Source: Candidatus Spongiisociaceae bacterium (GTDB lineage: Bacteria; Actinomycetota; Acidimicrobiia; Spongiisociales; Spongiisociaceae). From it: a DNA stretch of 64,000 bases. Made by a program: the position numbers and the translations under genes. Under the pieces are notes generated by a model. The model did not search any database. It saw only the letters and a program-made list of their open reading frames with translations, and was not told the origin of the DNA. Positions within the stretch are counted from its first letter, which is position 1; every line of letters starts with the position of its first letter. The stretch covers positions 1,602,246-1,666,245 of the forward strand of contig OZ251535.1 of assembly GCA_965243165.1 (NCBI GenBank), read 5' to 3'. Below, piece by piece: positions 13,791 to 55,976 of this stretch.

Positions 13791-13862
13791 GTCCCTTCCT
13801 TCCGACAACAGCTTAGCCTGTCCTTGGGGCGTATTGGCTCTATGTCAGCCCGAACGCCCAGT

Positions 13863-38696: not shown

Positions 38697-40439
38697 ATGG
38701 TGAGCAACTTGGAGCTGGCCGCCCTGTTCGGGGAGATGGCCGCGCTCACCAAGATCGCCGACGGCAGCGCCCAGTCCTTCCGGGCGCGCGCCTACGAGGC
38801 CGCCGCCAAGACCATCGAGGGGCTGTCCGCCAAGGCGGCGGAACTGTCTGCGGCCGAGCTGAAGAAACTGCCGGGCATCGGCGGCGCCACCGCCGCCAAG
38901 ATCCGCGAGTACGCCGATTCGGGGCGGATCGCCAAGCTGGAACAGCTGCGGGAGGAGTTCCCGCCGGACTTCCGGGCGCTGGTGAACGTCCCCGGCCTCG
39001 GTCCGAAGCGGGCGGTGCAGCTGCGGAACGAGCTGGGGGTGGGCTCCGCCGAGGAACTGGCGGCGGCCCTCGAAGCGGGGGCGGTGCGGGAGCTGGCGGG
39101 CTTCGGCGAACGGATGGAAGCCAACCTGCGGCGGGCCATGCAGCGGCTGGGCATGTCCGGCAAAGAGCGCCGCACTCCGATCCTGACCGCCATGCGCGAG
39201 GCGGAATGGCTGTTGGCCGAGGTGCGGGCGCTGCCGGGGGTGGAGGCCGCCGCCTACTGCGGGAGCCTGCGGCGTTTCCGGGACACGGTGGCCGACCTCG
39301 ACATCCTGGTGGGGACCTCCGATTCGGGGGCGGTGGCCGAGCGGCTGGTGAACCTGGGGTGGATCCGCCGGGTGATCGCCTCGGGGGGCACCAAGACCTC
39401 GGTGGTGAGCCAGTCGGGCCTCCAGGTGGACGTGCGGATGGTGCCGATGCGCCGGTGGGGGGCGGCGGTCCTGTATTTCACCGGTTCGCAGGCCCACAAC
39501 ATCCGGCTGCGCCGTCTGGCCATCCAGCGGGGGTGGACGCTCAACGAATACGCCCTGTCCGACGCCGGCGCCGGGGTGGAGATCGCGGCGCAGACCGAGG
39601 AGGAGATCTACGCGGCGCTGGGGCTGCCGTGGATTCCGCCCGCCATCCGGGAGGACCGGGGGGAGATCGAGGCGGGGCTGGGGGGCGGGCTGCCCGGCTT
39701 GGTGACGGACGGGGACCTGCGGGGCGATCTGCACGTCCACACCGACCTGTCGGGGGACGGGGACGATTCCCTGGAGGCGGTGCTGGCGGCGGCGGCGGAG
39801 ATGGGCTTGGATTACATCGCCGTTACCGACCACGCCGAGAACCTGGCCGTCAACGGAGCAAGCCGGGGGGAGATGCTGGCCCAGCGGCGGCGGATCGCTT
39901 CCCTCCAAGAGGAATATCCGGGGATGCGGATACTGCATGGAGTGGAGCTGAACATCGCTCCGGACGGCTCGCTCGACTACGACCGCGATTTCCTGATGGG
40001 ATACGACTGGTGCGTCGCCTCGGTGCACAGCCACTTCGACCTGGCAGCCGCCGAGCAGACCGAACGGCTGGCGGCGGCGGTGAGGCATCCGGCGGTGAAT
40101 GCGGTCGGCCATCTGCTGGGGCGGCGGATCGGGCGGAGGCCCGGCATCGAAGTGGACGTGGAGGCGGTGCTCGACGCCGCCGAGGCGACCGGTACGGCCA
40201 TCGAGATCAATTCCCACCTCGACCGGCTCGACGCCCCCGTGGAGGTGCTGTGGCAGGCGAGGCGCCGCCCCGGCGTCCGCTTCGTCATCTCCACCGACGC
40301 CCACCGGGTCGGCGAGCTGGCCCAGTCCAAATGGGGTGTGCTGCAGGCCCAGCGGGGATGGGTGGAAAAAGACAGAATCGCCAACACCTGGCCGGCCGAG
40401 CAGTTTCTGGACTGGGTTCGGGAGGTTCGAGGGGGATGA
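38697..40439 (+). CDS. polX: DNA polymerase/3'-5' exonuclease PolX (Pol beta-like domain + PHP domain)
   Basis: HhH motifs (LPGIGGATAAKI, VPGLGPKRAVQL). Pol X palm. C-terminal PHP motifs HVHTDLSGDG...HAEN... Confidence 0.85.
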   Translation: MVSNLELAALFGEMAALTKIADGSAQSFRARAYEAAAKTIEGLSAKAAELSAAELKKLPGIGGATAAKIREYADSGRIAKLEQLREEFPPDFRALVNVPGLGPKRAVQLRNELGVGSAEELAAALEAGAVRELAGFGERMEANLRRAMQRLGMSGKERRTPILTAMREAEWLLAEVRALPGVEAAAYCGSLRRFRDTVADLDILVGTSDSGAVAERLVNLGWIRRVIASGGTKTSVVSQSGLQVDVRMVPMRRWGAAVLYFTGSQAHNIRLRRLAIQRGWTLNEYALSDAGAGVEIAAQTEEEIYAALGLPWIPPAIREDRGEIEAGLGGGLPGLVTDGDLRGDLHVHTDLSGDGDDSLEAVLAAAAEMGLDYIAVTDHAENLAVNGASRGEMLAQRRRIASLQEEYPGMRILHGVELNIAPDGSLDYDRDFLMGYDWCVASVHSHFDLAAAEQTERLAAAVRHPAVNAVGHLLGRRIGRRPGIEVDVEAVLDAAEATGTAIEINSHLDRLDAPVEVLWQARRRPGVRFVISTDAHRVGELAQSKWGVLQAQRGWVEKDRIANTWPAEQFLDWVREVRGG

Positions 40440-40454
40440 TTCCATCCAGTCAGG

Positions 40455-41702
40455 TCAGTAGAGGTGTCCTTCGAGGCCGAGCAGCCATAGGGTGAGGATG
40501 GTGAGGGCGAGGCCGGCTGCGGCGCAGATCGTCCAGTCGATCAGGCGGGCGGCGAGTCTTCTGCCGGTTTTGGCGGGCGGGCGGGTGGTGTTGCGGTTTG
40601 GTTGGCGGGGGTGGTCTGGGGTGACGGCGGTGCGGGTGATTTGGTCGTGCCAGCCGCGTCGTTGGGTGTTGAAGAGGGGGGAGGCGGCGGTGAGGAGGAA
40701 GATGGGTATTCCGGCTAGGGGGATGAGGAGGGGGAGGTGGAGGGCGGCCCATCTGGCGGTTGTGCGGGTCCATCGGGGGGTTTGTCTGCCGGGGGTGCGG
40801 ATGGTTTGGATTCGGGTGAGGCGTTTGCCGATCGTTCGTCCGAGGGCGGCGGTTGTCAGGGTTTCGTAGAGGAGGAAGGGCGCCAGGAACAGACCGGCTG
40901 CGGCCGGGTAGGCGAGGAGGATGAAGGCCAAGAGGTCGACTCCGTTCGTATCGCTTCCGGTGTCTTCGTCGTTGCCGCCGAGGCCGGTCCGCATCAGGAG
41001 TTGTTCCAGCAGCGGGTTGAGGACTGTGATGCTCACGTCGTTTGTGGTTCCGTCTCTTCCCGCCGGGATGCCGGCGCGGATGCGGTCCAGCAGGTCCGCT
41101 TTCTTGGCGGGGGTGTCGACCACATCATGGAGTGCGACGGCAACTTCGATCTGTCCGGTTGTGATGTCTGGGGAAGACGTTATACCTGTTACCTCTTCGT
41201 AGCCGGATATGATGTCGTGAACGATCTGATGGCGTTTGGTGAGGCCTGCTTCGGTGAATCCCCGGTTTTCGATGATTCGGATGTCACGCGGGAAGGCTCG
41301 GACGGCTTCAACTGCCTCGGCGGGCGCTGTTCCGGTGAAGGATACAAACCCATTCACGCCGTCTTCGATCCAAGAACCTGTAAAGTCTTCCGGAAACTTT
41401 TCCCTGATTTGGTTGACCAAATAGCCGAACGGGCTTTGCCAGGCGTAATTCTCGATTGCTTCTTCGAGCGAGATGCCTTCCTGTTCTGCCAGAAATTCCA
41501 GGTCGCGGCAACGTTCTCCTGGAATTATTCCGGCGGCCAGCTGTTCGATTGGGTCCACTTTGGTCAGGGTGGTGGTAGTGACCAGAGTTCCGTATACGGG
41601 TGTACAGGTCCATGCGTTGCCGGCAGTCGGCATTGTGAGCAGGGATACCGCCAGCATTCCCAGCATCCACCCTGCCAGTGAGCTGCGCGTTCGGGTTGTC
41701 AT
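40455..41702 (-). CDS. Membrane protein with an N-terminal secreted domain homologous to the S1 protease pro-region, fused to a C-terminal RDD-family membrane domain (cassette A, gene 3)
   Basis: Signal peptide MTTRTRSSLAGWMLGMLAVSLLTMPTAGNAW. Residues ~50-230 align with the pro-region of protease 42889-44223 (EQEGISLEEAIENYAWQ...AFPRDIRIIENRGFTEAGL). C terminus carries RDD motifs (LGRTIGKRL...RRGWHD). The ATG overlaps the upstream gene stop (ATGA). Confidence 0.75.
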   Translation of the reverse strand: MTTRTRSSLAGWMLGMLAVSLLTMPTAGNAWTCTPVYGTLVTTTTLTKVDPIEQLAAGIIPGERCRDLEFLAEQEGISLEEAIENYAWQSPFGYLVNQIREKFPEDFTGSWIEDGVNGFVSFTGTAPAEAVEAVRAFPRDIRIIENRGFTEAGLTKRHQIVHDIISGYEEVTGITSSPDITTGQIEVAVALHDVVDTPAKKADLLDRIRAGIPAGRDGTTNDVSITVLNPLLEQLLMRTGLGGNDEDTGSDTNGVDLLAFILLAYPAAAGLFLAPFLLYETLTTAALGRTIGKRLTRIQTIRTPGRQTPRWTRTTARWAALHLPLLIPLAGIPIFLLTAASPLFNTQRRGWHDQITRTAVTPDHPRQPNRNTTRPPAKTGRRLAARLIDWTICAAAGLALTILTLWLLGLEGHLY

Positions 41703-42844
41703 GGGCCGCCTCGGTGTGCTTCGGAGGTTGGAACGACGATAGCGCCGGCGGCTTTGTCGTGCCATCCGCGCCGTTGGGAGTCGAAGAGGGGGGAGGCGGC
41801 TGTCAGGAAGAAGATGAGTATTCCGATGATGGGGAGTGCCAGGAGGGGAAGGTAGATCACAATCCATCTGATGCTGGCTCTCTTCCATCCTGGAACTCGG
41901 CCGTTGCCGATGCACACCACTCGGGTCTGGGTGAGAATTTTTCCGATCGTTTCTCCTCGAAGAGCAATCAGCGGCAACTCGTAGATGACCACCGAGGCTA
42001 AGACAGCAACGAAACCTATATGAAGTATAGATATAGCTATCCAGAGGTCGGATTCAGGTAACAGGCTCTGAACAGTAATCTGGAATGGTTCTATAAACGC
42101 AATACCTTTGTATATATCTATAAAAGTAGATCCTTCAAGTTCCAACAATCCTATCGACCATATCACAAGAGTGATCCCAGCTATTGAATATAGCAACCAG
42201 TCAATAGTTCGGGACAGGAACCGCTTATGCGTGGGAACTGAAAGAGAAACATTGTCCTGGATGGCCGGTGTTTTAGATGCTTGGGTAACAATTGTGCCCG
42301 CGATCTTGTCATGCCATCCGCGTCTTTGAGGGTCGAAGAGGGGGGATATAACTGTCAAGAGGAAAATTATTATTCCGATTATAGGAACCAGAAGAGGAAG
42401 ATATATTATCGCCCATCGCACGCTGGACATCTTCCATCCCGGAACGCGGCCGTTACTGTTATGAGTTACTTTGATTCCCATCATTATCTTCCCGATAGTC
42501 TGACCCCTGGCGGCGGTCATCGGAAGTTCATATAGAAGCGATGGAACCAGTAACAGGATTACACAGGCTAAGTGTATAGCAAAAATGGATAACCAAGGTT
42601 GAAAGTCAGGTACAGCATAAGTCTCAAACCATAATCTATAGGATTGTGAAGGAACTGAATCTCCACCTCCCAAGCCCACATAAGTTCTTGTAAAGCCGGT
42701 TACCCAGATTAGAGAGGACATCCCCCAGATCAGAGAGGACATCCAAAGCCAGATGCCTATAACAACATATAGTAACCAATCAATACATCGAGCTAATATG
42801 CGCCCTATCGATTCAGATTGATTGATACCGATAAGGCTCGCCAT
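41699..42844 (-). CDS. Tandem RDD-domain integral membrane protein (cassette A, gene 2)
   Basis: Two RDD units (GQTIGKIMMGIKV...RRGWHDKIAGT and GETIGKILTQTRV...RRGWHDKAAG) with multiple TM helices. Low GC. Confidence 0.75.
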   Translation of the reverse strand: MASLIGINQSESIGRILARCIDWLLYVVIGIWLWMSSLIWGMSSLIWVTGFTRTYVGLGGGDSVPSQSYRLWFETYAVPDFQPWLSIFAIHLACVILLLVPSLLYELPMTAARGQTIGKIMMGIKVTHNSNGRVPGWKMSSVRWAIIYLPLLVPIIGIIIFLLTVISPLFDPQRRGWHDKIAGTIVTQASKTPAIQDNVSLSVPTHKRFLSRTIDWLLYSIAGITLVIWSIGLLELEGSTFIDIYKGIAFIEPFQITVQSLLPESDLWIAISILHIGFVAVLASVVIYELPLIALRGETIGKILTQTRVVCIGNGRVPGWKRASIRWIVIYLPLLALPIIGILIFFLTAASPLFDSQRRGWHDKAAGAIVVPTSEAHRGGP

Positions 42845-42888
42845 TAGTTACTCCTTTCCTTGTGTTATTTTGTGCTTCATAATTGTGT

Positions 42889-44223
42889 TTATGAAGTAGC
42901 TACTGTCCAGCCTGGGAAGGCATCATCAATGTGATGAACCGGTGTAAAAAGATCCCGACGTTTTAAGCCAAATATCCAGTTGCCACTGTGAATACCGTAT
43001 GCAGTGGTTCCATGAAACCAAGGGCCTCCAGAATCACCTCCTCTGGCCTTTCTATTATGCATAGCAACCAGCTTTCGTCCTTCAGGATAGTATACGCTGC
43101 CCCTGTATACTCTGTCTACAGTGTAGCCGCTAGATTTCCCATATTTTCGCAACCATTGGCCTTCCATTGGTACTCCAGTAGATTCAACAAACTGATAATC
43201 GTTTGGTCCGCTGTCGTAACGAAATTCGTTCACAAGGGTATAGCCAGAAGGAACAGAATGTCTCTGAAGGTCCCCCCATTCTCCTTGATGTTCTATCCCC
43301 CAACCTAGCCGAAGATAAATAGAGCCGTCAATTAATCTTTGATTATTGCCACAGTGTCCTGCAGTAGAAATATGTCTCCTTCCACTCGTATGTTCAAGAA
43401 CAAAGCCCACTGTGCATGTGCTGAGATGCATTCCTCCTGTTACATCCTCATCTCCCCCGCCAGGAGTGGAGGTTACAATATTGAAAAGAACGTCTTTATT
43501 AGTCCCAGTACTGGCAACACTCCCGACTGGAAGGTTAGCTTGGAGAAGATCAAGCATAGATGTCTTCTCCTCAGGAGTAGATTCTGAGTTTTTTAGTACT
43601 ACTTCCACGGTTAGTAGTCCAGTTCCGATATCGTAGGTTGAGGCGGCTGTATCTATATTATCGTTGCCTATCACGCTATTATGAACTGAATCGAGACGTT
43701 GTCTAAGATCGGCTTCGGTGAAGCCCCGGTTCTCGATGATCTGCACGGCACGCGGGAAGGCCCGGATGGAACTCGCAGCACCGGCGGGCGCTGTTCCGGA
43801 GAAGGCCACCCAAGCTGTCAGATCTTCTTCGATCCGGGCTCCGGCGAAATCACCCGGATAATCTTGGCGGATTTCGTTGACCAAATAGGCGAGCGGGCCT
43901 TGCCAGGCGTACTTCTCGATCGCTTTGTCGAGTGAGATGCCTTCCTGTTCGGCCTGCCAGGTCAGCTGCTCGCGAAGCGCTTCGGATATTTCTCCCGCCG
44001 CGAACCGGGAAACCGGGTCGCTCGGGTTGCTCGGTGCCTTTTCGTCGGTTCCCCCTCCGCCGGAGGGTGCGCCGGTGCTGGGGGTTCCGAACCCGCCGTC
44101 GTCGGATCCGGGGGGTGAAACGGCCTGAACGGTCGAGGGGACGACCAGCGCCAACGCCAGCAACAGCAGGATGCCCGCCCTCGCCTTCGTGCGCCTCCGA
44201 ACTCTGCGTCTGCGGATCATCAT
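42889..44223 (-). CDS. Secreted S1-family serine protease, alpha-lytic protease/streptogrisin-like (S1E), with an N-terminal pro-region (cassette A, gene 1)
   Basis: Signal peptide, then a ~200-aa pro-region. Catalytic His in TAGHCG and Ser in GDSGGPWF. Paired Cys residues. Confidence 0.85.
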   Translation of the reverse strand: MMIRRRRVRRRTKARAGILLLLALALVVPSTVQAVSPPGSDDGGFGTPSTGAPSGGGGTDEKAPSNPSDPVSRFAAGEISEALREQLTWQAEQEGISLDKAIEKYAWQGPLAYLVNEIRQDYPGDFAGARIEEDLTAWVAFSGTAPAGAASSIRAFPRAVQIIENRGFTEADLRQRLDSVHNSVIGNDNIDTAASTYDIGTGLLTVEVVLKNSESTPEEKTSMLDLLQANLPVGSVASTGTNKDVLFNIVTSTPGGGDEDVTGGMHLSTCTVGFVLEHTSGRRHISTAGHCGNNQRLIDGSIYLRLGWGIEHQGEWGDLQRHSVPSGYTLVNEFRYDSGPNDYQFVESTGVPMEGQWLRKYGKSSGYTVDRVYRGSVYYPEGRKLVAMHNRKARGGDSGGPWFHGTTAYGIHSGNWIFGLKRRDLFTPVHHIDDAFPGWTVATS

Positions 44224-44420
44224 GAGATGCCTCCTGCCATCCTGCTTCTATTGCTTCTTCGAAGATATCACATCTAACAGGGTTCCGGAGGCTGAAACCG
44301 CATATTTCATAATTGTGTGCAATATGCAAAACCAAAGGATTGCATATTGTATACAATCTCAGCAAAACAGGTTAGCCTCACCGCTCGAGTCCGACTGATA
44401 CAGTTTATCTTCGCTGGCGA
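44224..44420 (-). promoter_or_regulatory. Low-GC promoter/leader of cassette A with a GntR-type palindromic operator; ~90% identical to 55130-55277 upstream of cassette B
   Basis: Near-dyad TGCAATATGCAA-N10-TTGCATATTGTA. The second arm also contains the perfect palindrome TTGTATACAA (GntR-like t.GT...AC.a). AT-rich -10-like hexamers. Confidence 0.5.
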
Positions 44421-44439
44421 GCTGATCGGTGCCGCTATT

Positions 44440-44700
44440 GGATCAATTCCCACCTCGACCAGCTTTGACGCCCCAGTCAAAGGTGCTGCGGCGGGCGAGA
44501 TGCCGCCTCGGTGTCCGCTTCGTCATCTTCACCGAGGCCTGCCGAGTCGGTGCTCCAGACCAGTCAAAGTGGGGGTGGGCTGCAGGCAGCGGAGCAGGAT
44601 GGAAGAGACAGGATCGCCAACACCTGGACAGCCGGGCGGTTCTCGACTGGGTTCGGAAGGTCTGCCGGGGTGACCGGACGTCTCTGCGGAGTGTCGGGCG
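44440..44700 (+). pseudogene. Degenerate duplicate of the polX 3' end (~75% identical to 40185-40440)
   Basis: ORF 44429..44713 translates to ...GVRFVIFTEACRVGAPDQSKWGW...DRQHLD.RAVLDWVRKV, against PolX ...GVRFVISTDAHRVGELAQSKWGV...DRIANTWPAEQFLDWVREV. Together with the intact polX end it brackets cassette A. Confidence 0.65.
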
Positions 44701-46927: not shown

Positions 46928-47225
46928 AAGGAACCGAAGCGGTCGAGCCTGCGAAAGTTCTCCGAACATACGTACCCCTAGCCGGAAGCCCGAAAATTTG
47001 GTATACCTATTGGGCTGAAGCACAAACACCGCCGCGAGTTCTGGAGAGGGCGGCGGTCAGAGAGACGGATCCCGTTCGGTCCGGCCCCGTCGGGCCGGGG
47101 GCGGCCTTGTGCGGCCCGGCGGATTTTCGTTCAAGGAGGCGGCGGCGGGGGATGGGCCCGGGTTTGCCGGCGGGGAGGGGCCGATTTTCGCGTTCTCGAG
47201 GGCATTTGGGTTGGATTGAAGGAGC
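46928..47225 (+). repeat. Full copy of the ~300-bp non-coding repeat element; inverted partner at 61141-61470
   Basis: ~90% identity over ~290 bp to the reverse complement of 61.2-61.47 kb. Indels between copies break every reading frame. Contains the palindrome ggtatacc and GC hairpins (ccggccccgtcgggccgg). Confidence 0.7.
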
Positions 47226-47403
47226 GGACGGCGGCGTGTTTGCCTCAGCGGGTTTGCCGAAAGGAGGGTATCTATGGCCTATATCGGCAGATGTCATGTT
47301 TGAGGCGCAACGGGCGCTGGCGAGTCGGTCTATGCCTGACGGCAGGGGCGGCCGACCGCTCGCTCGAGGCTCCCGGGCAGCCAGCTGGGCCGCTCTCCAA
47401 GGG

Positions 47404-47589
47404 TCAGTCGTCTTCGGTTTCGGTCGGGGAGGGTTCCGGATCGGGGTCGGCCGGAGAAATGTGGGAGTAGTAGCCCGCTATGTAGAACACTATCTGCAGC
47501 AGGACGAACACGCCCAAGGTTATCCACGGCCACCGAACCATCAGTTCCCCGAGTTCACCGACCAGCCTAACCACCGCATTCCCCTTCAA
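47404..47589 (-). pseudogene. Duplicated 3'-end fragment of the DUF2339 gene (tandem duplicate of 47650-47835)
   Basis: The ORF ends ...SPADPDPEPSPTETEDD, against the DUF2339 C terminus ...SPVPPADPDPEPSPTETEEAA. About 170 bp of nucleotide identity, including the 3' flank. Confidence 0.6.
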
Positions 47590-47733
47590 CCTCGACTGGC
47601 ATCATCGTAGTTTACATCGTTGATTGACATCGGGAACGCAACGGGTGCCCGCGAGTCGGTCTATGCCTGACGGCAGGGGCGGCCGACCGCTCGCTCGAGG
47701 CCCCCGGGCAGCCGGCCGGGCCGTTTCCAGGGG

Positions 47734-50567: not shown

Positions 50568-51050
50568 TCAGTAGAGGTGTCCTTCGAAGCCGAGCAGCCA
50601 TAGGGTGAGGATGGTGAGGGCGAGGCCGGATGCGGTGCAGATCGTCCAGTCGATCAGGCGGGCGGCGAGCCTTCTGCCGGCTGCGGCGGGCGGGCGGGTG
50701 GTGTTTCGGCTTGGTTGGGGGTCTGGGGTTACGGCGGTGCGGGTGATTTTGTCGTGCCATCCGCGTCGTTGGGGGTCGAAGAGGGGGGAGGCGGCGGTGA
50801 GGAGGAAGATGGGTATTCCGGCCAGGGGGATGAGCAGGGGGAGGTGGAGGGCGGCCCATCTGGCGGTTGTGCGGGTCCATCTTGGGGTTTGTCCGCCGGG
50901 GGTGCGGATGGTTTGGATTCGGGTGAGGCGTTTACCGATCGTTCGTCCGAGGGCGGCGGTTGCCAGGGTTTCGTAGAGAAGGAAGGGTGCCAGGAACAGG
51001 CCGGCGGCGGCCAGGTAGACGAGGAGCAACAGCACCAAGGGGTCGACGCC
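50568..51050 (-). repeat. ~480-bp direct repeat (3' end of the pro-region-RDD fusion gene). Copies at 40455-40935 (~90% id) and a partial third copy at 51712-51845
   Basis: Nucleotide alignment of the two cassette termini. The encoded C termini (…RTIGKRLTRIQTIRTPG.QTPRWTRTTARWAALHLPLLIPLAGIPIFLLTAASPLF...LGLEGHLY) are nearly identical. The segment is high-GC, unlike the rest of the cassettes. Confidence 0.75.
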
Positions 51051-51701
51051 GCGGCCGGCATCGCTTTCACCACCCGGCACATCTGGCTCAGTTCCGTCTC
51101 CGGTGTTCATCAACATTTCGAGGCGGTGCAGGAGTGGATTCATAACGATCAGGTCAATGTCATCTATGGTTCCGTCTCTTCCGGCTGGAATTTCAGCACG
51201 GATGCGGTCTAGTATGGTTGCTTTCTTGGCGGGAGTGTCGACCGAATCGTCGAGCACGAAGTTCACCGTGAATTGTCCTGTGGCTATATCGAAGGTAGAT
51301 CCAGTTTCTATTACGCTTTCGTTGTTCCATACGATATCATGAACGATGGTGAGTCGTTCTTTGAGTTGTGCTTCGGTGTAGCCGCGGTCCTCGATGATTT
51401 GTATGTCGCGGGGAAACGCCAGAATTGTTTCTACGGCGCCGGCGGGGGCTTCTCCAGCGAAGGCGATCCAAACCGTCTGGTCGTCTTCGATCCGAGCTCC
51501 TGCAAAATCTTCTGGATATTCTTCCCGGATATCGTTGACCATCGTAGACAGTGATCCCTTTGTAAGGGTGGCAGCGGCGGCCAGAGCATCGGATACGAGT
51601 GTACTGGCCCATGCGTTGCCGGCGGTCAACGCTGCAAGTAGGAAAACCGCCAGCATTCCCAGCAACCGCCATGTCTGTGAGCTTCGCCTCCGGGTACTCA
51701 T
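50568..51701 (-). CDS. Pro-region-like domain fused to an RDD membrane domain (cassette B, gene 4). Shorter pro-like domain than its paralogs
   Basis: Signal peptide MSTRRRSSQTWRLLGMLAVFLLAALTAGNAWA. Pro-like segment (…ILAFPRDIQIIEDRGYTEAQL…). RDD C terminus. Start overlaps the upstream gene stop. Confidence 0.75.
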   Translation of the reverse strand: MSTRRRSSQTWRLLGMLAVFLLAALTAGNAWASTLVSDALAAAATLTKGSLSTMVNDIREEYPEDFAGARIEDDQTVWIAFAGEAPAGAVETILAFPRDIQIIEDRGYTEAQLKERLTIVHDIVWNNESVIETGSTFDIATGQFTVNFVLDDSVDTPAKKATILDRIRAEIPAGRDGTIDDIDLIVMNPLLHRLEMLMNTGDGTEPDVPGGESDAGRGVDPLVLLLLVYLAAAGLFLAPFLLYETLATAALGRTIGKRLTRIQTIRTPGGQTPRWTRTTARWAALHLPLLIPLAGIPIFLLTAASPLFDPQRRGWHDKITRTAVTPDPQPSRNTTRPPAAAGRRLAARLIDWTICTASGLALTILTLWLLGFEGHLY

Positions 51702-52576
51702 CGGCCGCCTCCTGTTTGCCGATTGTTCGTCCGAGGGCGGCGGCTGCCAGGGTTTCGTAGGAGGAAGAGCGTCAGGAGCAGGCTGGCGGCGGCTAAGCAG
51801 ACGAGGAGTAACAGCACCAGGGGGTCAACGCCGCGGCCGACTTCGCTTTCACCATCCGGCATACCTAGCTCGGGTCCGCCTTCGATGCGATCGACAACCT
51901 TCAGGTCGATGTCATCTATGGTTCCGTCTCTTCCCGCCGGTATTTCAGCGCGGATGCGGTTTAGTATGGTTGCTTTCTTGGCGGGGGTATCGATTGAATC
52001 ATGCAGTACGATAGTAACTTGGATCTGTCCGGTAGTGATGGAGTAAGTCGATATGTAATCTATCACCTCTTCGTAGCTGGACGCGATTCCGGAAACAATC
52101 CCGTGGCGTTTGTTGAGGGTTGCTTCGGTGAATCCCCGGTTTTCGATGATTCGGATGGGGTGTGGGAAGGCTCGGATGGCTTCAACGGCCTCGGCGGGCG
52201 CTGTTCCGGTGAAGGATACAAAACCATTCACGTCGTTCCTGATCCAAGAGCCTGTAAAGTCTTCGGGATATTTTTCCCTGATTTCGTTGACTAAATAGGA
52301 GAACGCGTCTTGCCAGGCGTACCTCTCAATGGATTCTTCGAGCGAGATGCCTTCCTGTTCTGCTATCAATTCCAGGTCTTGGCAAAGGTATCCAGAGATT
52401 ATTCCGGCGGCCAGCTGTTCAACTGGGTCGGCCTTTGTCAGGGTAGTATTGGTGTCTGGAGTGTCGGATACGGTTGTACAGGTCCATGCGTTGCCGGCGG
52501 TCGGCGCTGCGAGCAGGGAAACCGTCAGTATTCCCAGCAACCGCCATGCCAATGAACTGCGGGCTCGGGTTTTCAT
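51698..52576 (-). CDS. Pro-region-like secreted protein, a C-terminally truncated paralog of the pro-region-RDD fusions (cassette B, gene 3); likely a degenerate copy
   Basis: The N-terminal 230 aa are ~75% identical to 40455..41702. The TM region ends in the out-of-frame tail ...RNPGSRRPRTNNRQTGGGR. The alternative frame at 51712-51760 still encodes AAALGRTIGK (RDD motif), so a frameshift plus deletion is inferred. Confidence 0.6.
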   Translation of the reverse strand: MKTRARSSLAWRLLGILTVSLLAAPTAGNAWTCTTVSDTPDTNTTLTKADPVEQLAAGIISGYLCQDLELIAEQEGISLEESIERYAWQDAFSYLVNEIREKYPEDFTGSWIRNDVNGFVSFTGTAPAEAVEAIRAFPHPIRIIENRGFTEATLNKRHGIVSGIASSYEEVIDYISTYSITTGQIQVTIVLHDSIDTPAKKATILNRIRAEIPAGRDGTIDDIDLKVVDRIEGGPELGMPDGESEVGRGVDPLVLLLLVCLAAASLLLTLFLLRNPGSRRPRTNNRQTGGGR

Positions 52577-53730
52577 GAGCTGCCCCTCGACTGTTGGCGG
52601 CCTTGAAGCCCTTCGGAGGTTGGAACGACGATGGTGCCTGCGGCTTTGTCGTGCCATCCGCGCCGTTGGGGGTCGAAGAGGGGGGAGGCGGCTGTCAGAA
52701 GGAAGACCAGTATTCCGATGATGGGTAGTGCGAGGAGGGGAAGGTAGAGCACCATCCATCTTATGCTGGCTTTCTTCCATCCGGGAACTTGGCCGTTGTC
52801 GATGCATACTACTTGGGTCTTGGTGAGTATTTTTCCGATTGTTTCTCCTCGAAGAGCAGTCAGCGGCAACTCGTAGATAACTACCGAGATGAAGACAATG
52901 GTGAAGGAATTATGAATTCCAAATACAGCCAACCAGAAGTCGGATTCATATATCATCCGTCTTATACCCTCAATCTGATAAGAGATGCTCAATGGTTCTA
53001 TGGCAACCCTGCTATTGTATAGGTCTATGAAGGTTGATCCTTCGAGTTCTAGCAATCCAATTGACCATATCAGAAAGGTAACTCCAGCTATTGAATATAG
53101 CAGCCAGTCGATAGTTCGGGCCAGCAACCGTTTGTGTGCACCGGTTGGAAAGAGAAGTGATGTTCTTGATTCTTTGTCTTTACTTACTGGAGCGACGAGT
53201 GTGCCAGCGATTTTGTCGTGCCAGCCGTGTCGTTGAGAGTTGAACAGCGGTGATGCGGTTGTCAGGAGGAAAATCAGTATTCCGATTATTGGAATCAGAA
53301 GAGGAAGGTAGAGTATCGCCCATCTTATGCTGGATCTTGTCCATCCTGGAAAGTGGCCCTTATTGTTGTGGGTTACTTTGATTCCCATCAGTATCTTCCC
53401 GGCTGTTTGCCCTCTCGCGGCGATCAGCGGTAGTTCATATAGAAGAGATGGAAGTAGTAATAGTATTACACCGGCCAGATGTATAGCAAAGATAGATGTC
53501 CAGGGTTGGAGGTCAGGTATCGCATAGGTTTCGATCCATGTTACCGGAGGCGGCGGAGGGTCAGGTTCAACCTGATAAGTACTCCGTTTTGTTCCCGTCA
53601 AGAGTGCTATCCAATCTTGAGATGATAATAAAAGAGTTATGCCTGTAATAACATAGATCGTCCAATCGATGCACCGAGCTAATACGCGCCTCGTTGATTC
53701 AGATTGGTTGATCTTTATGATGCTTGCCAT
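52573..53730 (-). CDS. Tandem RDD-domain membrane protein (cassette B, gene 2), paralog of 41699..42844
   Basis: Start MASIIKINQSES, matching MASLIGINQSES in the paralog. Two RDD units (GQTAGKILMGIKV...RHGWHDKIAG and GETIGKILTKTQV...RRGWHDKAAG). Confidence 0.7.
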   Translation of the reverse strand: MASIIKINQSESTRRVLARCIDWTIYVITGITLLLSSQDWIALLTGTKRSTYQVEPDPPPPPVTWIETYAIPDLQPWTSIFAIHLAGVILLLLPSLLYELPLIAARGQTAGKILMGIKVTHNNKGHFPGWTRSSIRWAILYLPLLIPIIGILIFLLTTASPLFNSQRHGWHDKIAGTLVAPVSKDKESRTSLLFPTGAHKRLLARTIDWLLYSIAGVTFLIWSIGLLELEGSTFIDLYNSRVAIEPLSISYQIEGIRRMIYESDFWLAVFGIHNSFTIVFISVVIYELPLTALRGETIGKILTKTQVVCIDNGQVPGWKKASIRWMVLYLPLLALPIIGILVFLLTAASPLFDPQRRGWHDKAAGTIVVPTSEGLQGRQQSRGSS

Positions 53731-53779
53731 TTTCTTTTTGCCCTCCTCGTCTCCTGCTATTACCTTTATAGCCGATGGT

Positions 53780-55129
53780 TTATGAAGTAGCGACATCCCA
53801 ACCAGGAAAGGCGTCTTCAATATGATGGACCGGAGTAAAAAGGCTTCTCCTTTTACTGGCTGGACGCCCTATATCATTTTTGTAGCCAAAATGAATACCA
53901 TAGGCGGTGTCTCCCCGGAACCATGGACCCCCAGAATCTCCTCCTTGAGTTGTATGACTAAACATTGCTACTAGATGTTCTGCTATACCGGCATTAACAA
54001 CACCTCTGTAGACCCAATCTGATTTATAACCTGTGGACATTCCATAATTTAATAATACTTGACCTTCCACTGGGACTCCGGTTGACAAGATCGGCCGAGA
54101 GTGCCGCCCGCTGCTATTATAACGAATACTATTTGTCAGAGTGTGTCCTGAAGGTACGGAATGCCGTTGAAGGTCTCCCCATCGTCCTTCATGTTCGTCT
54201 TCAAAAGTCAATGTTATCCTAATATTGCCGTCCCTCAATGTCTGATTGTTGGAACAGTGGCCTGCAGTGGAGATATTCCTCTCCCCGTTTGAGTTCTCAA
54301 GAACAAACCCTGCTGTGCACCGGCTGAGATGTGTCCCGCCTCGTATGTCGGATTCAGCTCCGCCCGCTATGTCACTTACGACATTCAGAGTCACGTCGCT
54401 GGTTCCAACGTTGGCAACGCTTCCGATCGGGAGTTCGGCGCGTAGAAGATCCGACAGTGCTTTCTTCTGTGCGGGGGTGTCAGCCGAATCCTCGATTGCG
54501 ACGGTTACCTCCAACCGGCCGGTAGCGAGGTCGTAGGTCGAGACAGCGTCTTCGACCTTGTCGTTTGCCATCACGCTGTCATGAACGGCGGTGAGGCGCC
54601 GATTGAGGCCAGCTTCGGTGAAACCCCGGTTCTCGATGATTTGCACGGCGCGCGGGAAGGCGCGGATGGAGCTCGCAGCACCGGCGGGCGCCGTTCCGGA
54701 GAAGGCCACCCAGGCTGTCAGATCTTCTTCGATCCGGGCTCCGGCGAAATCATTCGGATAATCTTGGCGGATCTCGTTGACCAGATAGGCGAGGGGGCCT
54801 TGCCATGCGTACTTCTCAATCGCTTTGTCGAGTGAGATGCCTTCCTGTTCGGCCTGCCAGGTCAGCTGTTCGCGAAGGGCTTCGGAGATCTCTCCCGCCG
54901 CGAACCGGGCAACCGGGTCACTGGGGCTGCTCGGCGCCTCTTCGTTGCCTCCCCCTCCGCTGGCTGGTACACCGGCGCCGGGGCCGGGGGTTCCGAACCC
55001 GCCGTCGTCGGATCCGGGGGGTGAAGCGGCCTGAACGGCCAAGGGGAGGACCAGCGCCAGCGCCAGCAACAGCAGGATGCCCGCCCTCGCCTTCGTGCGC
55101 CTCCGAGCTCTGCGTCTGCGGATCATCAT
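53780..55129 (-). CDS. Secreted S1E (alpha-lytic/streptogrisin-like) serine protease with pro-region (cassette B, gene 1), paralog of 42889..44223
   Basis: Signal peptide. Pro-region ~90% identical to the cassette A protease. The mature domain has diverged (TAGHCSNN, GDSGGPWF). Confidence 0.85.
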   Translation of the reverse strand: MMIRRRRARRRTKARAGILLLLALALVLPLAVQAASPPGSDDGGFGTPGPGAGVPASGGGGNEEAPSSPSDPVARFAAGEISEALREQLTWQAEQEGISLDKAIEKYAWQGPLAYLVNEIRQDYPNDFAGARIEEDLTAWVAFSGTAPAGAASSIRAFPRAVQIIENRGFTEAGLNRRLTAVHDSVMANDKVEDAVSTYDLATGRLEVTVAIEDSADTPAQKKALSDLLRAELPIGSVANVGTSDVTLNVVSDIAGGAESDIRGGTHLSRCTAGFVLENSNGERNISTAGHCSNNQTLRDGNIRITLTFEDEHEGRWGDLQRHSVPSGHTLTNSIRYNSSGRHSRPILSTGVPVEGQVLLNYGMSTGYKSDWVYRGVVNAGIAEHLVAMFSHTTQGGDSGGPWFRGDTAYGIHFGYKNDIGRPASKRRSLFTPVHHIEDAFPGWDVATS

Positions 55130-55277
55130 GAGATTCCTCCTGTCATCCGGCTTCCTATTGCTTCTTCGAAGATATCACATCGAATAGGGTTCCGGAGGCT
55201 GAAACCGCCTATTTTGTAATTGTGTGCAATATGCAAAACCGGAAGATTGCATATTGTATACAATCTCAGCAAACCGG
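55130..55277 (-). promoter_or_regulatory. Promoter/operator region of cassette B, lying between the GntR gene and the protease gene
   Basis: Contains the same TGCAATATGCAA / TTGCATATTGTATACAA dyads as the cassette A leader. Low GC. Confidence 0.5.
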
Positions 55278-55976
55278 TCAGGCCATGGCGTTGTTTCGGC
55301 GCGCTGATATCAGTTGTTGTATTTCGGAAGAGACTGCCGTCAGGTGCTCGGCGATCCACTGCTCGGCCCGGTCGGAGTCCTTGGCTCGGATGGCTTCCGT
55401 CAGGACTTTGTACATCGAATGCCGGTGCGGGGCTGCGTCGACGCTCATCCAGTAGCGGCCCAGTCCGGTGCGGAGCCTGCCCACGATGGCGGCGGTCAGC
55501 GGGCAGTGGGCGGCGGTGTAGACGCGCTGGTAGAACCGGTCGGTGAGCTCCCGCCGCCGGGCGGGGTTATCCTCGCCGTCGATCTGCTTCGCCAGTTCGG
55601 TGAGCTCGTCCACGGCGGCGGGGGTGATCCGTTCGATCGCCAACCGCAGGGCGAAGGTCTCCAACAAGATGCGGAGCTGGTAGGTCTCCTCCAGCTCCTC
55701 GGGTTCGAGCATTCGGACCGTTGCCCCCCGGTGGGGGGCGTAATCCACCAGGCCTTCCGCGGCGAGGGTGTGGAGGGCGGCGGTCACCGGCACCCGCGAG
55801 GTGTTCAGCTCTTTGGCCAGGGCCGCTTGGCGCAGCCTTTGCCCCGGTTTCAGGACGCCGGTGATGATCGCCTCGCGCAGAGCGGCCGTTACGGCTTCTT
55901 CCACCGTGCTGTAACGCAGGTTGGCCCGGTGGGCTATCTCTGCGAGAGTTCCTTCTGCGGCCATCCGCCCGGCCAT
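55278..55976 (-). CDS. GntR-family transcriptional regulator (FadR/FCD subfamily)
   Basis: N-terminal wHTH (...GQRLRQAALAKELNTSRVPVTAALHTLAAEGLV). C-terminal all-helical FCD domain. Sits immediately upstream of the cassette B operator. Confidence 0.8.
   Translation of the reverse strand: MAGRMAAEGTLAEIAHRANLRYSTVEEAVTAALREAIITGVLKPGQRLRQAALAKELNTSRVPVTAALHTLAAEGLVDYAPHRGATVRMLEPEELEETYQLRILLETFALRLAIERITPAAVDELTELAKQIDGEDNPARRRELTDRFYQRVYTAAHCPLTAAIVGRLRTGLGRYWMSVDAAPHRHSMYKVLTEAIRAKDSDRAEQWIAEHLTAVSSEIQQLISARRNNAMA

What the first reader, a model, noticed from the sequence alone, without database searches (positions are those of the whole stretch)
50568..52576. Mosaic relationship between the cassettes: A3 = B2-like N terminus + B1-like C terminus; B2 has lost its RDD domain; three copies of a ~480-bp high-GC repeat
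The N-terminal 230 aa of 40455..41702 are most similar to 51698..52576 (B2). Its last ~160 aa and ~480 bp of DNA are ~90% identical to the 3' end of 50568..51701 (B1). B2 ends in an out-of-frame tail, but an alternative frame at 51712-51760 still encodes AAALGRTIGK. 51712-51845 is a third partial copy of the same repeat. So either cassette A arose from a B-like cassette by a deletion between homologous RDD-fusion paralogs, or cassette B arose by partial duplication. The repeated 3' segment is high-GC, unlike the rest of the cassettes, suggesting gene conversion or amelioration at the cassette boundary.
Basis: seen in the sequence. Interest (0 to 1): 0.6.

Follow-up and report, generated by a model that had tools for sequence, protein, structure and literature searches.

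The report
Gene-converted protease pro-domain/RDD membrane gene cassettes
Two low-GC operons in a sponge-symbiont actinobacterium each encode a secreted protease plus membrane proteins that carry extra copies of the protease's own folding (pro) domain, and the reported mosaic comes from old gene duplication plus repeated copying of one segment between the copies.

Summary
A3 (40455-41702) resembles B2 in its 5' part (about 76% nt) and B1 in its last ~455 bp (94.6%). B2 (51698-52576) has lost the RDD domain through a 2-bp deletion and keeps a 130-bp remnant of the repeat.

Related loci show three old lineages of the N-terminal module: A3-type, B2-type and B1-type. A3 has true orthologues elsewhere, so it is not a recent B2xB1 deletion hybrid.

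The shared 3' segment is a gene-conversion tract. Copies within one genome differ at 0-22 of 417 sites, and in the two closest genomes that is fewer than between orthologues. Third-codon identity jumps from 54% to 94% at the tract boundary.

B2's truncation recurs in two independent assemblies and evolves at dN/dS about 0.3. It is therefore neither an assembly error nor a decaying pseudogene.

Identity between the cassettes correlates with GC (rho 0.59).

The N-terminal module is a paralogue of the pro region of the adjacent alpha-lytic-type serine protease. Fused to an RDD membrane anchor, it probably acts in trans as a surface-tethered foldase or inhibitor; this is inferred, not shown. The evolutionary process is ordinary; the gene architecture appears undescribed.

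The parts
40455..41702 (-). A3: signal peptide, protease pro-region paralogue (about 40983-41570) and a partial RDD membrane domain.
   Evidence: Pfam RDD hit at 5.7e-17, covering profile positions 40-136 of 137. The AlphaFold N-terminal domain has pLDDT 85-96. The top four Foldseek PDB hits are the alpha-lytic protease pro region. The protein is identical to P0015, from an NCBI contig of 3.19 Mb.
40455..40910 (-). Gene-conversion tract in A3: the GC-rich 3' repeat, copy 1.
   Evidence: 89-95% identity to B1 in 100-nt windows. There are 22 differences in 417 bp. Third-codon identity is 94% here against 54% upstream. The boundary is sharp in the variable-site display.
50568..51701 (-). B1: signal peptide, a B1-type pro module lacking about 43 N-terminal residues, and a partial RDD domain.
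   Evidence: Pfam RDD hit at 3.4e-16. Alignment. Orthologues in L003 and L004 and in domain 2 of the L001 fusion protein. Identical to P0005.
50568..51017 (-). Gene-conversion tract in B1: GC-rich 3' repeat, copy 2.
51698..52576 (-). B2: signal peptide, B2-type pro module, one transmembrane helix (51758-51829) and a basic frameshifted tail (51701-51757). No RDD domain.
   Evidence: No Pfam hit. Hydropathy and charge; coordinates. The same architecture occurs in L003 and L004. dN/dS is 0.27-0.36.
51713..51845 (-). Partial third copy of the repeat inside B2. The 2-bp deletion lies at about 51759/51760. Homology ends at 51713, where the B1 ribosome-binding site begins.
   Evidence: DNA alignments; coordinates.
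41699..42844 (-). Cassette A double-RDD membrane protein. Its stop overlaps the A3 start (ATGA).
   Evidence: Pfam RDD hit at 5.9e-38 with two stretches. ORF list.
52573..53730 (-). Cassette B double-RDD membrane protein. The likely start is the ATG at 53730; the mechanical ORF runs to 53820. Its stop overlaps the B2 start.
   Evidence: Pfam RDD hit at 6.6e-41. The MASIIK start is shared with orthologues.
42889..44223 (-). Cassette A pre-pro serine protease of the S1E (streptogrisin / alpha-lytic protease) family.
   Evidence: phmmer hits to 2oua and 1sgc. AlphaFold pTM 0.75. Foldseek hits to NAPase, alpha-lytic protease and SGPA at E 1e-11. H290 and D318 are invariant and S398 nearly invariant.
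53780..55129 (-). Cassette B pre-pro serine protease (S1E). 72% nt identity to the A copy.
43730..44323 (-). Second homogenised tract, 83-95% identical to about 54640-55230 in cassette B. It covers the promoter/operator, the signal peptide and the first half of the protease pro region.
   Evidence: Sliding identity and GC.
44312..44357 (.). 18-nt inverted repeat (ATTGTGTGCAATATGCAA / TTGCATATTGTATACAAT) upstream of protease A. Putative GntR operator.
   Evidence: Conserved in seven loci, including the distant L006 and L013.
55219..55264 (.). The same inverted repeat upstream of protease B.
55278..55976 (-). GntR/FCD-family regulator immediately upstream of cassette B. It travels with the cassette in L013.
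   Evidence: Precomputed Pfam labels.
40175..40426 (+). Functional 3' end of the PolX/PHP gene: left copy of the direct repeat flanking cassette A.
44412..44661 (+). Decayed duplicate of the PolX 3' end (79% identity, with indels): right copy of the direct repeat flanking cassette A.
   Evidence: The site is empty in L001. The same insertion occurs in L015.

Best explanation
**What it is.** The window comes from a ~70% GC genome of a sponge-associated Acidimicrobiia bacterium, a relative of Candidatus Spongiisociaceae. It holds two paralogous low-GC operons. Each encodes three kinds of protein:
- a secreted alpha-lytic-type (S1E) serine protease with its own pro region;
- a double-RDD membrane protein;
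- one or two 'Pro-RDD' proteins.

In a Pro-RDD protein, a paralogue of the protease pro region is exported by a signal peptide. A piece of the RDD protein holds it on the membrane.

**Why it looks mosaic (shown).**
1. The pro module exists in three old paralogue lineages: A3-type, B2-type and B1-type. They predate the split from related genomes. A3 is an orthologue of genes that sit at the B locus in other genomes. It is not a B2xB1 hybrid.
2. The ~455-bp RDD-encoding 3' segment is repeatedly homogenised by gene conversion. This happens between copies in one genome, whether they are adjacent or 10 kb apart.
3. B2 is an old derivative. Its RDD part was removed at a duplication- or deletion-type junction, and a 2-bp deletion created a basic tail. 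This leaves a pro module on a single-pass anchor. The gene is kept under purifying selection.

**GC pattern.** Segments homogenised between the cassettes are GC-richer than the divergent cores. This fits GC-biased gene conversion, or recombination arms around an exchangeable core (inferred).

**Function (inferred, about 35% confidence).** The tethered pro modules act in trans on the cognate protease as foldase and/or tight inhibitor at the cell surface. Both operons probably answer to one GntR regulator through a shared operator.
For: **Three lineages**
- In the NJ tree and identity table of the pro parts, W_A3 groups with L001_g3 and L005_g3 at 82-83%. It is 76% identical to W_B2 and 67% to W_B1.
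- B2-type and B1-type each have about 80% orthologues in the L001 fusion protein. L008 encodes the same two-domain protein.
- L001 and L008 hold all three types in one array.

**Conversion**
- Differences in 417 bp: L001 F against g3, 0. L008 F against g3, 6. L001 against L008, 9-11. W A3 against B1, 22. W_B1 against its L003 and L004 orthologues, 28 and 26.
- Third-codon identity between A3 and B1 is 54% in the pro part and 94% in the RDD part. Fisher p = 1e-17.
- Boundaries are sharp at the tract start and at the stop codon. Shared variants are patchy among A3, B1, L003_B1 and L004_B1.

**B2**
- The 2-bp deletion and the junction are mapped.
- The same tail occurs in L003 and L004.
- dN/dS is 0.27-0.36, like B1 and A3.
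- The ATGA stop/start overlap with B1 is kept.

**GC**
- Spearman rho is 0.59, p = 7e-5, between A/B identity and GC over 39 windows.

**Function**
- The A3 N-terminal domain is 46-49% identical to the pro regions of the neighbouring proteases.
- Its only significant Foldseek PDB hits are 3pro and 4pro, chains C and D.
- The protease domain matches alpha-lytic protease and NAPase.
- The alpha-lytic protease pro region works in cis or in trans (abstract of PMC2289522).
- The pro module is acidic and follows a signal peptide; the loop after the first helix is basic.
- The pro-to-anchor linkers resemble the cognate protease's pro/mature junction. A protease has GGGDEDVTGG and A3 has GGNDEDTGSD. 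B protease has GGAESDIRGG and B1 has GGESDAGRG.
- The operator-like inverted repeat is conserved upstream of both proteases and in five other loci.
Against: **Limits of the evolutionary evidence**
- The lineage trees are simple NJ trees on uncorrected distances from 8-12 sequences. Conversion may also have touched the pro parts: B1 and B2 are 80-90% identical at both ends but 60-67% in the middle.
- All comparison loci are metagenome contigs. Collapsed or chimeric repeats could inflate within-genome identity, most of all the 0 differences in L001.
- In the window genome the paralogue/orthologue contrast is small (22 against 26-28 differences).

**Limits of the GC argument**
- The GC-identity correlation rests on one pair of cassettes.
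- The gene in L002 already has a GC-richer RDD part (GC3 0.72 against 0.54). Whether L002 has other copies is unknown. The GC contrast therefore cannot be due to recent conversion alone.

**Limits of the functional evidence**
- There is no experimental or complex-model evidence.
- Pfam's alpha-lytic pro-domain model gives no hit.
- The RDD part of the A3 model has low confidence.
- Some related loci keep the Pro-RDD genes but lack the protease (L001, L004, L002).
- The linkers are short, acidic and Gly-rich, so their resemblance to the junctions could be chance.
Confidence: 0.7

Rival explanations
1. A3 is a recent hybrid. It was made in this genome, or a near ancestor, by a deletion or unequal crossover between a B2-like and a B1-like gene. 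Cassette A would then be a B-like cassette that lost one gene.
For: Within the window, A3's 5' part is closest to B2 and its 3' part to B1, with one switch point near 40910.
Against: A3's 5' part is only 76% identical to B2. It is 82-83% identical to full-length genes in L001 and L005, and L008 has a full-length counterpart. Those genes carry the same module and sit beside B2-type and B1-type modules in L001 and L008. The protease of cassette A is also of a different type from that of cassette B: 72% between them, against 86% to L008. The 3' identity is found between any two copies in a genome. That is the pattern of conversion, not of a single crossover.
Confidence: 0.08
2. The B2/B1 pair arose by a partial tandem duplication of one ancestral Pro-RDD gene. 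The duplicated unit ran from about 12 nt upstream of the ATG to the GRTIGK codons. The downstream copy (B1) then diverged quickly.
For: The junction has exactly this form. Homology of B2 to the RDD segment ends at 51713. Homology of B1 to the A3 and B2 starts begins about 12 nt before the ATG. B1 and B2 are 80-90% identical at both ends of the unit.
Against: In the pro-module tree B2-type groups with A3-type, and B1-type lies outside. This needs strongly unequal rates or later conversion of the B2 middle. L001 and L008 have a different, in-frame B2::B1 fusion. The array may therefore once have held complete B2 and B1 genes, cut down by separate deletions.
Confidence: 0.4
3. The pattern is an assembly artefact: collapsed or chimeric repeats, and a sequencing frameshift in B2.
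For: Short-read contigs break inside the repeat. L015 ends at window position 40799, and the P0001 contig is only 2.4 kb.
Against: The B2 frameshift and the B2/B1 junction recur in L003 (95.5% identity over 13.7 kb) and in L004 (91%), which come from different samples. Cassette A with its PolX repeat recurs in L015 at 98.6%. A3 and B1 differ at 22 sites, so they are not collapsed copies.
Confidence: 0.03
4. The high similarity of the 3' segment reflects only strong purifying selection on the RDD membrane domain, not conversion.
For: The RDD segment is the most conserved part of the protein family.
Against: Third-codon positions are 94% identical in the tract against 54% upstream. Among the 124 identical residues only 9 use different codons. 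Copies in L001 and L008 are closer within a genome (0 and 6 differences) than orthologues between the two genomes (9-11).
Confidence: 0.03
5. B2 is a dead pseudogene left over from the rearrangement.
For: It lost its RDD domain through a frameshift and keeps an out-of-frame remnant.
Against: The ORF is intact in three genomes that differ by 4-10%. dN/dS is 0.27-0.36, equal to B1 and A3. The new tail is conserved and basic, as expected on the cytoplasmic side of a single-pass anchor. The stop still overlaps the B1 start codon. L003 and L004 have gained an in-frame 19-residue insertion without breaking the frame.
Confidence: 0.12
6. The GC-rich, conserved cassette ends are not products of GC-biased conversion. 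They are homology arms. The divergent low-GC cores are swapped between strains by homologous recombination, as at other variable surface loci.
For: Different parts of the cassette give conflicting trees. The W_A protease groups with L008 and L006, and the W_B protease with L003 and L005, while the double-RDD genes group differently. The cassette occurs in at least four genomic contexts. Other low-GC islands in the window carry defence-type genes typical of horizontal transfer.
Against: The cassette family stays low-GC in all lineages sampled, at conserved positions. No mobility gene lies in the cassettes. This reading is compatible with conversion rather than opposed to it.
Confidence: 0.3

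Closest known systems
Alpha-lytic protease / streptogrisin family (MEROPS S1E) pre-pro-enzymes and their pro region (PDB 2PRO, 3PRO, 4PRO)
   Same: The cassette proteases have the S1E fold, the His/Asp/Ser triad and an N-terminal pro region after a signal peptide. The A3, B1 and B2 N-terminal module is homologous to that pro region (46-49% identity). Its best Foldseek PDB matches are the alpha-lytic protease pro region. The pro region is known to act in trans (PMC2289522 abstract).
RDD family membrane proteins (Pfam PF06271)
   Same: A3, B1 and the double-RDD proteins pass the Pfam threshold. They contain the GxTxGK and RRGWHD motifs.
   Different: A3 and B1 match only profile positions 40-136 or 48-136. 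They then end with what is the first helix of the next RDD repeat in the double-RDD protein. They are therefore a permuted slice of the neighbouring gene. The function of RDD proteins is largely unknown (own knowledge).
Stand-alone propeptide-like protease inhibitors, such as MEROPS family I9 (subtilisin propeptide homologues)
   Same: The idea is the same: a propeptide paralogue encoded apart from the protease and acting on it in trans (own knowledge, not tested here).
   Different: The protease clan and the fold are different. Those inhibitors are soluble, not membrane-anchored. Inhibition is not shown here.
Concerted evolution by gene conversion in bacterial paralogues (for example tuf genes, rRNA operons, pilin and surface-protein cassettes)
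   Same: Paralogues within a genome are more alike than orthologues. Tract boundaries are sharp and synonymous sites are homogenised.
   Different: The tract covers only one domain of a fusion gene. It operates both inside a tandem array and between operons 10 kb apart. It coincides with a local rise in GC inside low-GC islands of a high-GC genome.

Membership tests
S1E (alpha-lytic protease / streptogrisin) serine proteases: 42889-44223 and 53780-55129 | Chymotrypsin-type double beta-barrel fold closest to S1E members | tested here: met
   phmmer hits to 2oua and 1sgc at E 1e-6 to 5e-6. Foldseek hits to NAPase, alpha-lytic protease, SGPA and TFPA at E about 1e-11, target TM 0.7-0.79.
S1E (alpha-lytic protease / streptogrisin) serine proteases: 42889-44223 and 53780-55129 | Catalytic His, Asp and Ser | tested here: met
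   H290 and D318 are invariant and G396-D397-S398-G399-G400 nearly invariant in 39 homologues. TAGHC and GDSGGP occur in both window proteins.
S1E (alpha-lytic protease / streptogrisin) serine proteases: 42889-44223 and 53780-55129 | Signal peptide followed by an N-terminal pro region that precedes the mature domain | tested here: met
   Hydrophobic N-terminus after a basic stretch. A confident alpha/beta domain at residues 70-230 before the protease domain.
Alpha-lytic protease pro region (Pfam PF02983; PDB 2PRO/4PRO): N-terminal modules of A3, B1 and B2 | Sequence match to the family profile | tested here: not met
   No Pfam hit other than RDD at E <= 0.01. No PDB sequence hit at E <= 10.
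Alpha-lytic protease pro region (Pfam PF02983; PDB 2PRO/4PRO): N-terminal modules of A3, B1 and B2 | Two-lobed alpha/beta fold of the pro region | tested here: inconclusive
Alpha-lytic protease pro region (Pfam PF02983; PDB 2PRO/4PRO): N-terminal modules of A3, B1 and B2 | Homology to the pro region of a bona fide S1E protease | tested here: met
   46-49% identity over about 180 residues to the pro regions of the two cassette proteases. DNA similarity of 74-76%.
Alpha-lytic protease pro region (Pfam PF02983; PDB 2PRO/4PRO): N-terminal modules of A3, B1 and B2 | Catalyses folding of, and inhibits, the mature protease | not testable with these tools
   Needs refolding and inhibition assays or a complex model.
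RDD family (PF06271) | Profile match above the curated threshold | tested here: met
   A3 62.7 bits, B1 60.2 bits, double-RDD proteins 130.7 and 140.2 bits, against a cut-off of 24.1. B2 has no hit, so B2 is not a member.
RDD family (PF06271) | Complete domain with the N-terminal Arg/Asp helix | tested here: not met
   A3 and B1 cover only profile positions 40-136 and 48-136 of 137. An RRLAARLIDW helix sits at the C-terminus instead.
Concerted evolution by gene conversion (3' RDD segment) | Paralogues within a genome more similar than orthologues between genomes | tested here: met
   0 differences in L001 and 6 in L008, against 9-11 between L001 and L008. 22 differences for W A3/B1, against 26-28 for W_B1 and its orthologues.
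Concerted evolution by gene conversion (3' RDD segment) | Homogenisation includes synonymous sites and has discrete boundaries | tested here: met
   Third-position identity 94% against 54%, Fisher p = 1e-17. Boundaries lie near 40910 / 51017 and at the stop codon.
Integrative mobile element (cassette A) | Integrase or transposase gene, and flanking direct repeats | tested here: not met
   Direct repeats of about 250 bp are present, and the site is empty in L001. The 4 kb between them holds only the three cassette genes, with no recombinase ORF.

The most novel reading that the evidence does not exclude
The Pro-RDD proteins may be a natural, dedicated, trans-acting partner system for kinetically stable secreted proteases. 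Pro-region paralogues on the cell surface would fold, capture or neutralise the cognate protease. Their linkers would mimic that protease's own cleavage junction. Modules would diversify by cassette shuffling while conversion keeps the membrane anchor uniform. In that case the system would resemble a protease/immunity pair in a sponge symbiont. A second novel element: the conversion tracts stand out as GC-rich patches in low-GC islands, which would be a clean bacterial case of GC-biased gene conversion.
Probability: 0.28. Interest if true: 0.7.

Novelty: new variant of a known kind. Interest (0 to 1): 0.45.

Why it matters
The evolutionary process here is ordinary: duplication, deletion and gene conversion between paralogues. 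This corrects the idea that A3 is a simple hybrid.

The genes themselves are unusual. A protease pro region, the textbook intramolecular chaperone, has been copied out of its protease. It is fused to a membrane anchor in up to three versions per operon. Among the 150 best of 514 related protein clusters, only four carry this kind of fusion.

If the tethered pro modules do fold or inhibit the protease in trans, this would be a natural example of what has so far been shown by experiment with alpha-lytic protease. It would also suggest how a symbiont controls a destructive secreted enzyme at its own surface.

The link between conversion tracts and local GC gives a small, testable case for GC-biased conversion in bacteria.

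Tried and rejected
**Hypotheses rejected**
- Recent B2xB1 deletion hybrid for A3: rejected on orthologue identities.
- Assembly error in B2: rejected, because L003 and L004 share the frameshift and junction.
- Selection-only explanation of the 3' identity: rejected on third-codon identity.
- Mobile-element origin of cassette A: no recombinase gene lies between the direct repeats.

**Searches that found nothing**
- A sequence search of the PDB with the Pro-RDD profile found nothing.
- Rfam gave no hit in the window at gathering thresholds.
- Literature searches for RDD with prodomain or alpha-lytic protease, and for Spongiisociaceae biology, returned nothing relevant.
- The genome-collection scan returned only one locus, L002. 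The comparative set therefore rests on metagenome contigs.

- The RDD part of the A3 model had pLDDT below 50, so I did not use it.
- An exact look-up of P0005 returned no contig.

**Not attempted**
- Polarised substitution analysis for GC-biased conversion. The only outgroup, the L002 type, is about 68% identical and too distant.


Full report
**1. Observation**

The window is about 70% GC. It holds two islands of 41-50% GC on the minus strand.

Self-BLAST shows the islands are co-linear:
- 40823-44366 aligns with 51714-55273 at 74.6%.
- 40455-41419 aligns with 50568-51541 at 78%.
- B1 aligns with B2 (50930-51539 with 51714-52291) at 72%.

In a three-way alignment, A3 (40455-41702) is 75-95% identical to B2 (51698-52576) over its 5' part. 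It then switches to 83-98% identity with B1 (50568-51701), from about 40910 / 51017 to the stop codon.

B2 has no RDD hit in Pfam, while A3, B1 and both double-RDD proteins do. B2 carries a 2-bp deletion at about 51759/51760. The deletion creates the tail RNPGSRRPRTNNRQTGGGR, and the other frame still reads YETLAAAALGRTIGKQ. Homology to the RDD segment ends at 51713, twelve nucleotides before the B1 start codon.

**2. What the genes are**

Each cassette encodes three kinds of protein.

*Protease.* The first gene is a pre-pro serine protease of the S1E family.
- Sequence hits go to the Nocardiopsis protease 2oua and to SGPA.
- Fold hits go to NAPase, alpha-lytic protease and SGPA.
- The catalytic residues are conserved across 39 homologues.

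*Double-RDD protein.* The second gene encodes a membrane protein with two RDD domains.

*Pro-RDD proteins.* A3, B1 and B2 begin with a signal peptide. An acidic domain of about 180 residues follows, 46-49% identical to the pro regions of the neighbouring proteases.
- This domain is modelled with pLDDT 85-96.
- Its only significant Foldseek matches in the PDB are the alpha-lytic protease pro region, 3pro and 4pro chains C and D.

The membrane part of A3 and B1 corresponds to the double-RDD protein from the middle of its first RDD domain to the first helix of its second. A Pro-RDD gene is thus built from pieces of the two genes upstream of it.

Successive genes overlap by ATGA.

**3. Source and relatives**

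- A3 and B1 are identical to proteins from an NCBI contig of 3.19 Mb.
- The one hit in the genome collection is a MAG of Candidatus Spongiisociaceae, class Acidimicrobiia.
- The Pro-RDD family is tiny: 12 clusters in 5.8 billion proteins.
- A profile of the pro module finds 514 clusters among 1.84 billion representatives. Of the best 150, only four carry an RDD or membrane fusion. Most of the others that can be classified are ordinary proteases.

**4. Related loci**

| Locus | Relation to the window | Gene order |
|---|---|---|
| L003 | 95.5% over 13.7 kb | GntR, protease, double-RDD, B2, B1, DUF2339; same B2 tail |
| L004 | 91% | Same B2 and B1; protease and GntR lost |
| L005 | 86% | One full-length A3-type gene at the B locus, with an in-frame stop |
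| L001, L008 | 84-92% in flanks (L001) | Double-RDD, in-frame B2::B1 fusion (589-596 aa), intact A3-type gene, DUF2339 |
| L006 | more distant | One cassette between the hydrolase gene and PolX |
| L013 | more distant | GntR, protease and RDD genes in a different neighbourhood |
| L015 | 98.6% | Cassette A at the PolX site |

**5. Three module lineages**

The pro-module DNA falls into three groups:
- A3-type: W_A3, L001_g3 and L005_g3, at 82-93% identity within the group.
- B2-type: W, L003 and L004 B2, plus the first domain of the L001 fusion, at 77-96%.
- B1-type: W, L003 and L004 B1, plus the second domain of the L001 fusion, at 80-97%.

L008's two genes have the same architectures as those of L001 and nearly the same protein sequences.

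Between groups, identity is 64-80%, and A3-type lies nearest to B2-type. The three types therefore predate the split between the window lineage and the L001/L008 lineage. A3 is the orthologue of genes that lie at the B locus elsewhere. This rules out a recent B2xB1 deletion as its origin.

The proteases also fall into two types. W_A groups with L008 and L006. W_B groups with L003 and L005. The double-RDD genes group differently again. The history of the cassettes is reticulate.

**6. The 3' repeat is a conversion tract**

Differences over the last 417 bp:

| Comparison | Differences |
|---|---|
| L001, its two copies | 0 |
| L008, its two copies | 6 |
| L001 against L008 | 9-11 |
| W A3 against W B1 | 22 |
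| W B1 against its L003 / L004 orthologues | 28 / 26 |

The pro part of B1 is 96.8% identical to L003, so the larger divergence in the 3' part stands out.

Third-codon identity between A3 and B1 is 54% in the pro part and 94% in the RDD part. Fisher p = 1e-17. Protein-level constraint cannot explain this.

The variable-site display shows a sharp start to the tract and a sharp end at the stop codon. Variants are shared in patches among A3, B1, L003_B1 and L004_B1. This is concerted evolution by repeated gene conversion. It acts both inside an array and between operons 10 kb apart.

**7. B2**

The junction runs from 12 nt upstream of the ATG to the GRTIGK codons. This is what a partial tandem duplication would leave. 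Two deletions from a longer array would give the same result, and the in-frame fusion in L001 and L008 shows that such deletions happen. I rate duplication at about 0.4.

Whatever its origin, B2 is not decaying:
- The ORF, the tail and the ATGA overlap are kept in three genomes.
- dN/dS is 0.27-0.36, like B1 (0.34-0.40) and A3 (0.34-0.37).
- The product has the form of a single-pass membrane protein. An acidic pro module lies outside, followed by one helix and a basic tail.

**8. GC**

GC3 falls from about 0.8 at the 5' end of the protease genes to 0.2-0.4 in their 3' halves. It stays mostly at 0.3-0.5 in the double-RDD genes, rises to 0.6-0.75 at their 3' ends, and reaches 0.72-0.85 in the A3 and B1 RDD segment. 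Flanking native genes have GC3 of 0.83-0.90.

Over 39 windows of 100 nt, A/B identity correlates with GC (Spearman rho 0.59, p = 7e-5). Three homogenised tracts stand out:
- 44323-43730: promoter, signal peptide and first half of the pro region.
- 41963-41763: the 3' end of the double-RDD gene.
- 40910-40455: the RDD segment of A3.

The conserved ends might instead act as recombination arms around an exchangeable low-GC core. The L002 gene already shows the GC contrast, so recent conversion is not the whole story.

Other low-GC islands in the window carry defence-type genes. Such islands are therefore a general feature of accessory DNA in this genome.

**9. Context**

Cassette A lies between two copies of the last ~250 bp of the PolX gene. 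The copies are at 40175-40426 and 44412-44661 and are 79% identical. The right copy has indels.
- L001 has the empty site.
- L015 has the same insertion.
- L006 and L002 place the cassette family next to PolX.

I infer, with low confidence, that cassette A entered by homologous recombination, from a relative in which a cassette abuts PolX.

An 18-nt inverted repeat containing ATTGTATACAAT lies upstream of both protease genes and in five other loci. A GntR/FCD regulator gene precedes cassette B and travels with the cassette in L013. One regulator probably controls both operons. This is inferred.

**10. How it most likely works**

*Shown:*
- module homology;
- fold similarity;
- export signals;
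- gene linkage;
- conservation under selection.

*Established for the family:* the alpha-lytic protease pro region is needed for folding and can act in trans (PMC2289522 abstract).

*Inferred:* the tethered pro modules bind the cognate protease at the cell surface, as foldase and/or inhibitor. The linkers between pro module and anchor resemble the cognate protease's own pro/mature junction:
- A protease has GGGDEDVTGG and A3 has GGNDEDTGSD.
- B protease has GGAESDIRGG and B1 has GGESDAGRG.

This hints at cassette-specific pairing and possibly cleavage. The evidence is weak, because the linkers are short and of low complexity. I put the functional model at about 0.35 and the evolutionary account at about 0.8.

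**11. Verdict**

The finding is confirmed as an observation and only partly as an interpretation. The process behind it is well known. The architecture it reveals, protease pro-region paralogues on RDD membrane anchors, seems undescribed and is rare. I class it as a new variant of a known kind, of moderate interest.

Noticed in passing
window 44312-44357 and 55219-55264: An 18-nt inverted repeat with a 10-nt spacer, containing the perfect palindrome ATTGTATACAAT, lies upstream of both protease genes. It is conserved in L003, L005, L008, L006 and L013. It looks like a GntR-family operator, and cassette A keeps it although it has no GntR gene of its own.
   Followed up: partly
window 40175-40426 and 44412-44661: Cassette A is flanked by a ~250-bp direct repeat of the PolX 3' end (79% identity; the right copy has decayed with indels). 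The site is empty in L001, and the same insertion occurs in L015. No recombinase gene lies between the repeats.
   Followed up: partly
window 43730-44323 vs about 54640-55230; 41763-41963 vs about 52640-52840: Two further segments are 83-95% identical between the cassettes, and both are GC-richer than their surroundings. They look like additional conversion tracts. Across the cassettes, identity correlates with GC (rho 0.59).
   Followed up: partly
window 12336-13808 (-) and 19090-23541 (+): Other low-GC islands (40-50% GC) encode an AAA_15/AbiEii-like ATPase and a 1483-aa ResIII/DEAD helicase protein. In L002 a low-GC Eco57I-type methylase sits next to PolX. Low-GC islands in this lineage seem to hold defence-type accessory genes.
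   Followed up: partly
window 46935-47215 vs 61467-61191; 47306-47516 vs 47637-47837: There is a 283-bp inverted repeat at 90% identity, 14 kb apart, and a ~210-bp direct repeat at 85%. Neither has an Rfam match. Their nature is unknown.
   Followed up: no
L001 7845-9614 and L008 6393-8183: In these relatives the B2-type and B1-type pro modules are fused in frame into one protein of 589-596 aa, with two pro modules and one RDD anchor. An intact A3-type gene follows.
   Followed up: yes
L004 6775-7927; L001 6089-6642: Some relatives have lost the protease (L004 has also lost GntR; L001 keeps a truncated GntR) but keep the RDD and Pro-RDD genes. L004 has extra partial RDD duplicates in place of the lost genes.
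   Followed up: no
L005 about 9150: The A3-type gene of L005 has an in-frame stop codon replacing the Trp in DFTGSWIEDG. In this locus a B-type protease is paired with an A3-type module.
   Followed up: no
protein P0157 (309 aa, from the representative search): This is an RDD protein in which half a pro module sits in the loop between the first and second membrane helices. It appears to be an independent way of displaying the pro module on an RDD scaffold.
   Followed up: no
L015 end (= window 40799); P0001 contig (2.4 kb): Short-read contigs of close relatives break inside the 3' repeat, as expected for a near-identical repeat. Copy number in MAGs of this clade may therefore be under-reported.
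   Followed up: no
window 43440-43480, 40930-40960, 51040-51060 (linker codons): The acidic, Gly-rich linkers after the pro modules resemble the pro/mature junction of the protease in the same cassette. A has GGGDEDVTGG against GGNDEDTGSD in A3. B has GGAESDIRGG against GGESDAGRG in B1.
   Followed up: partly
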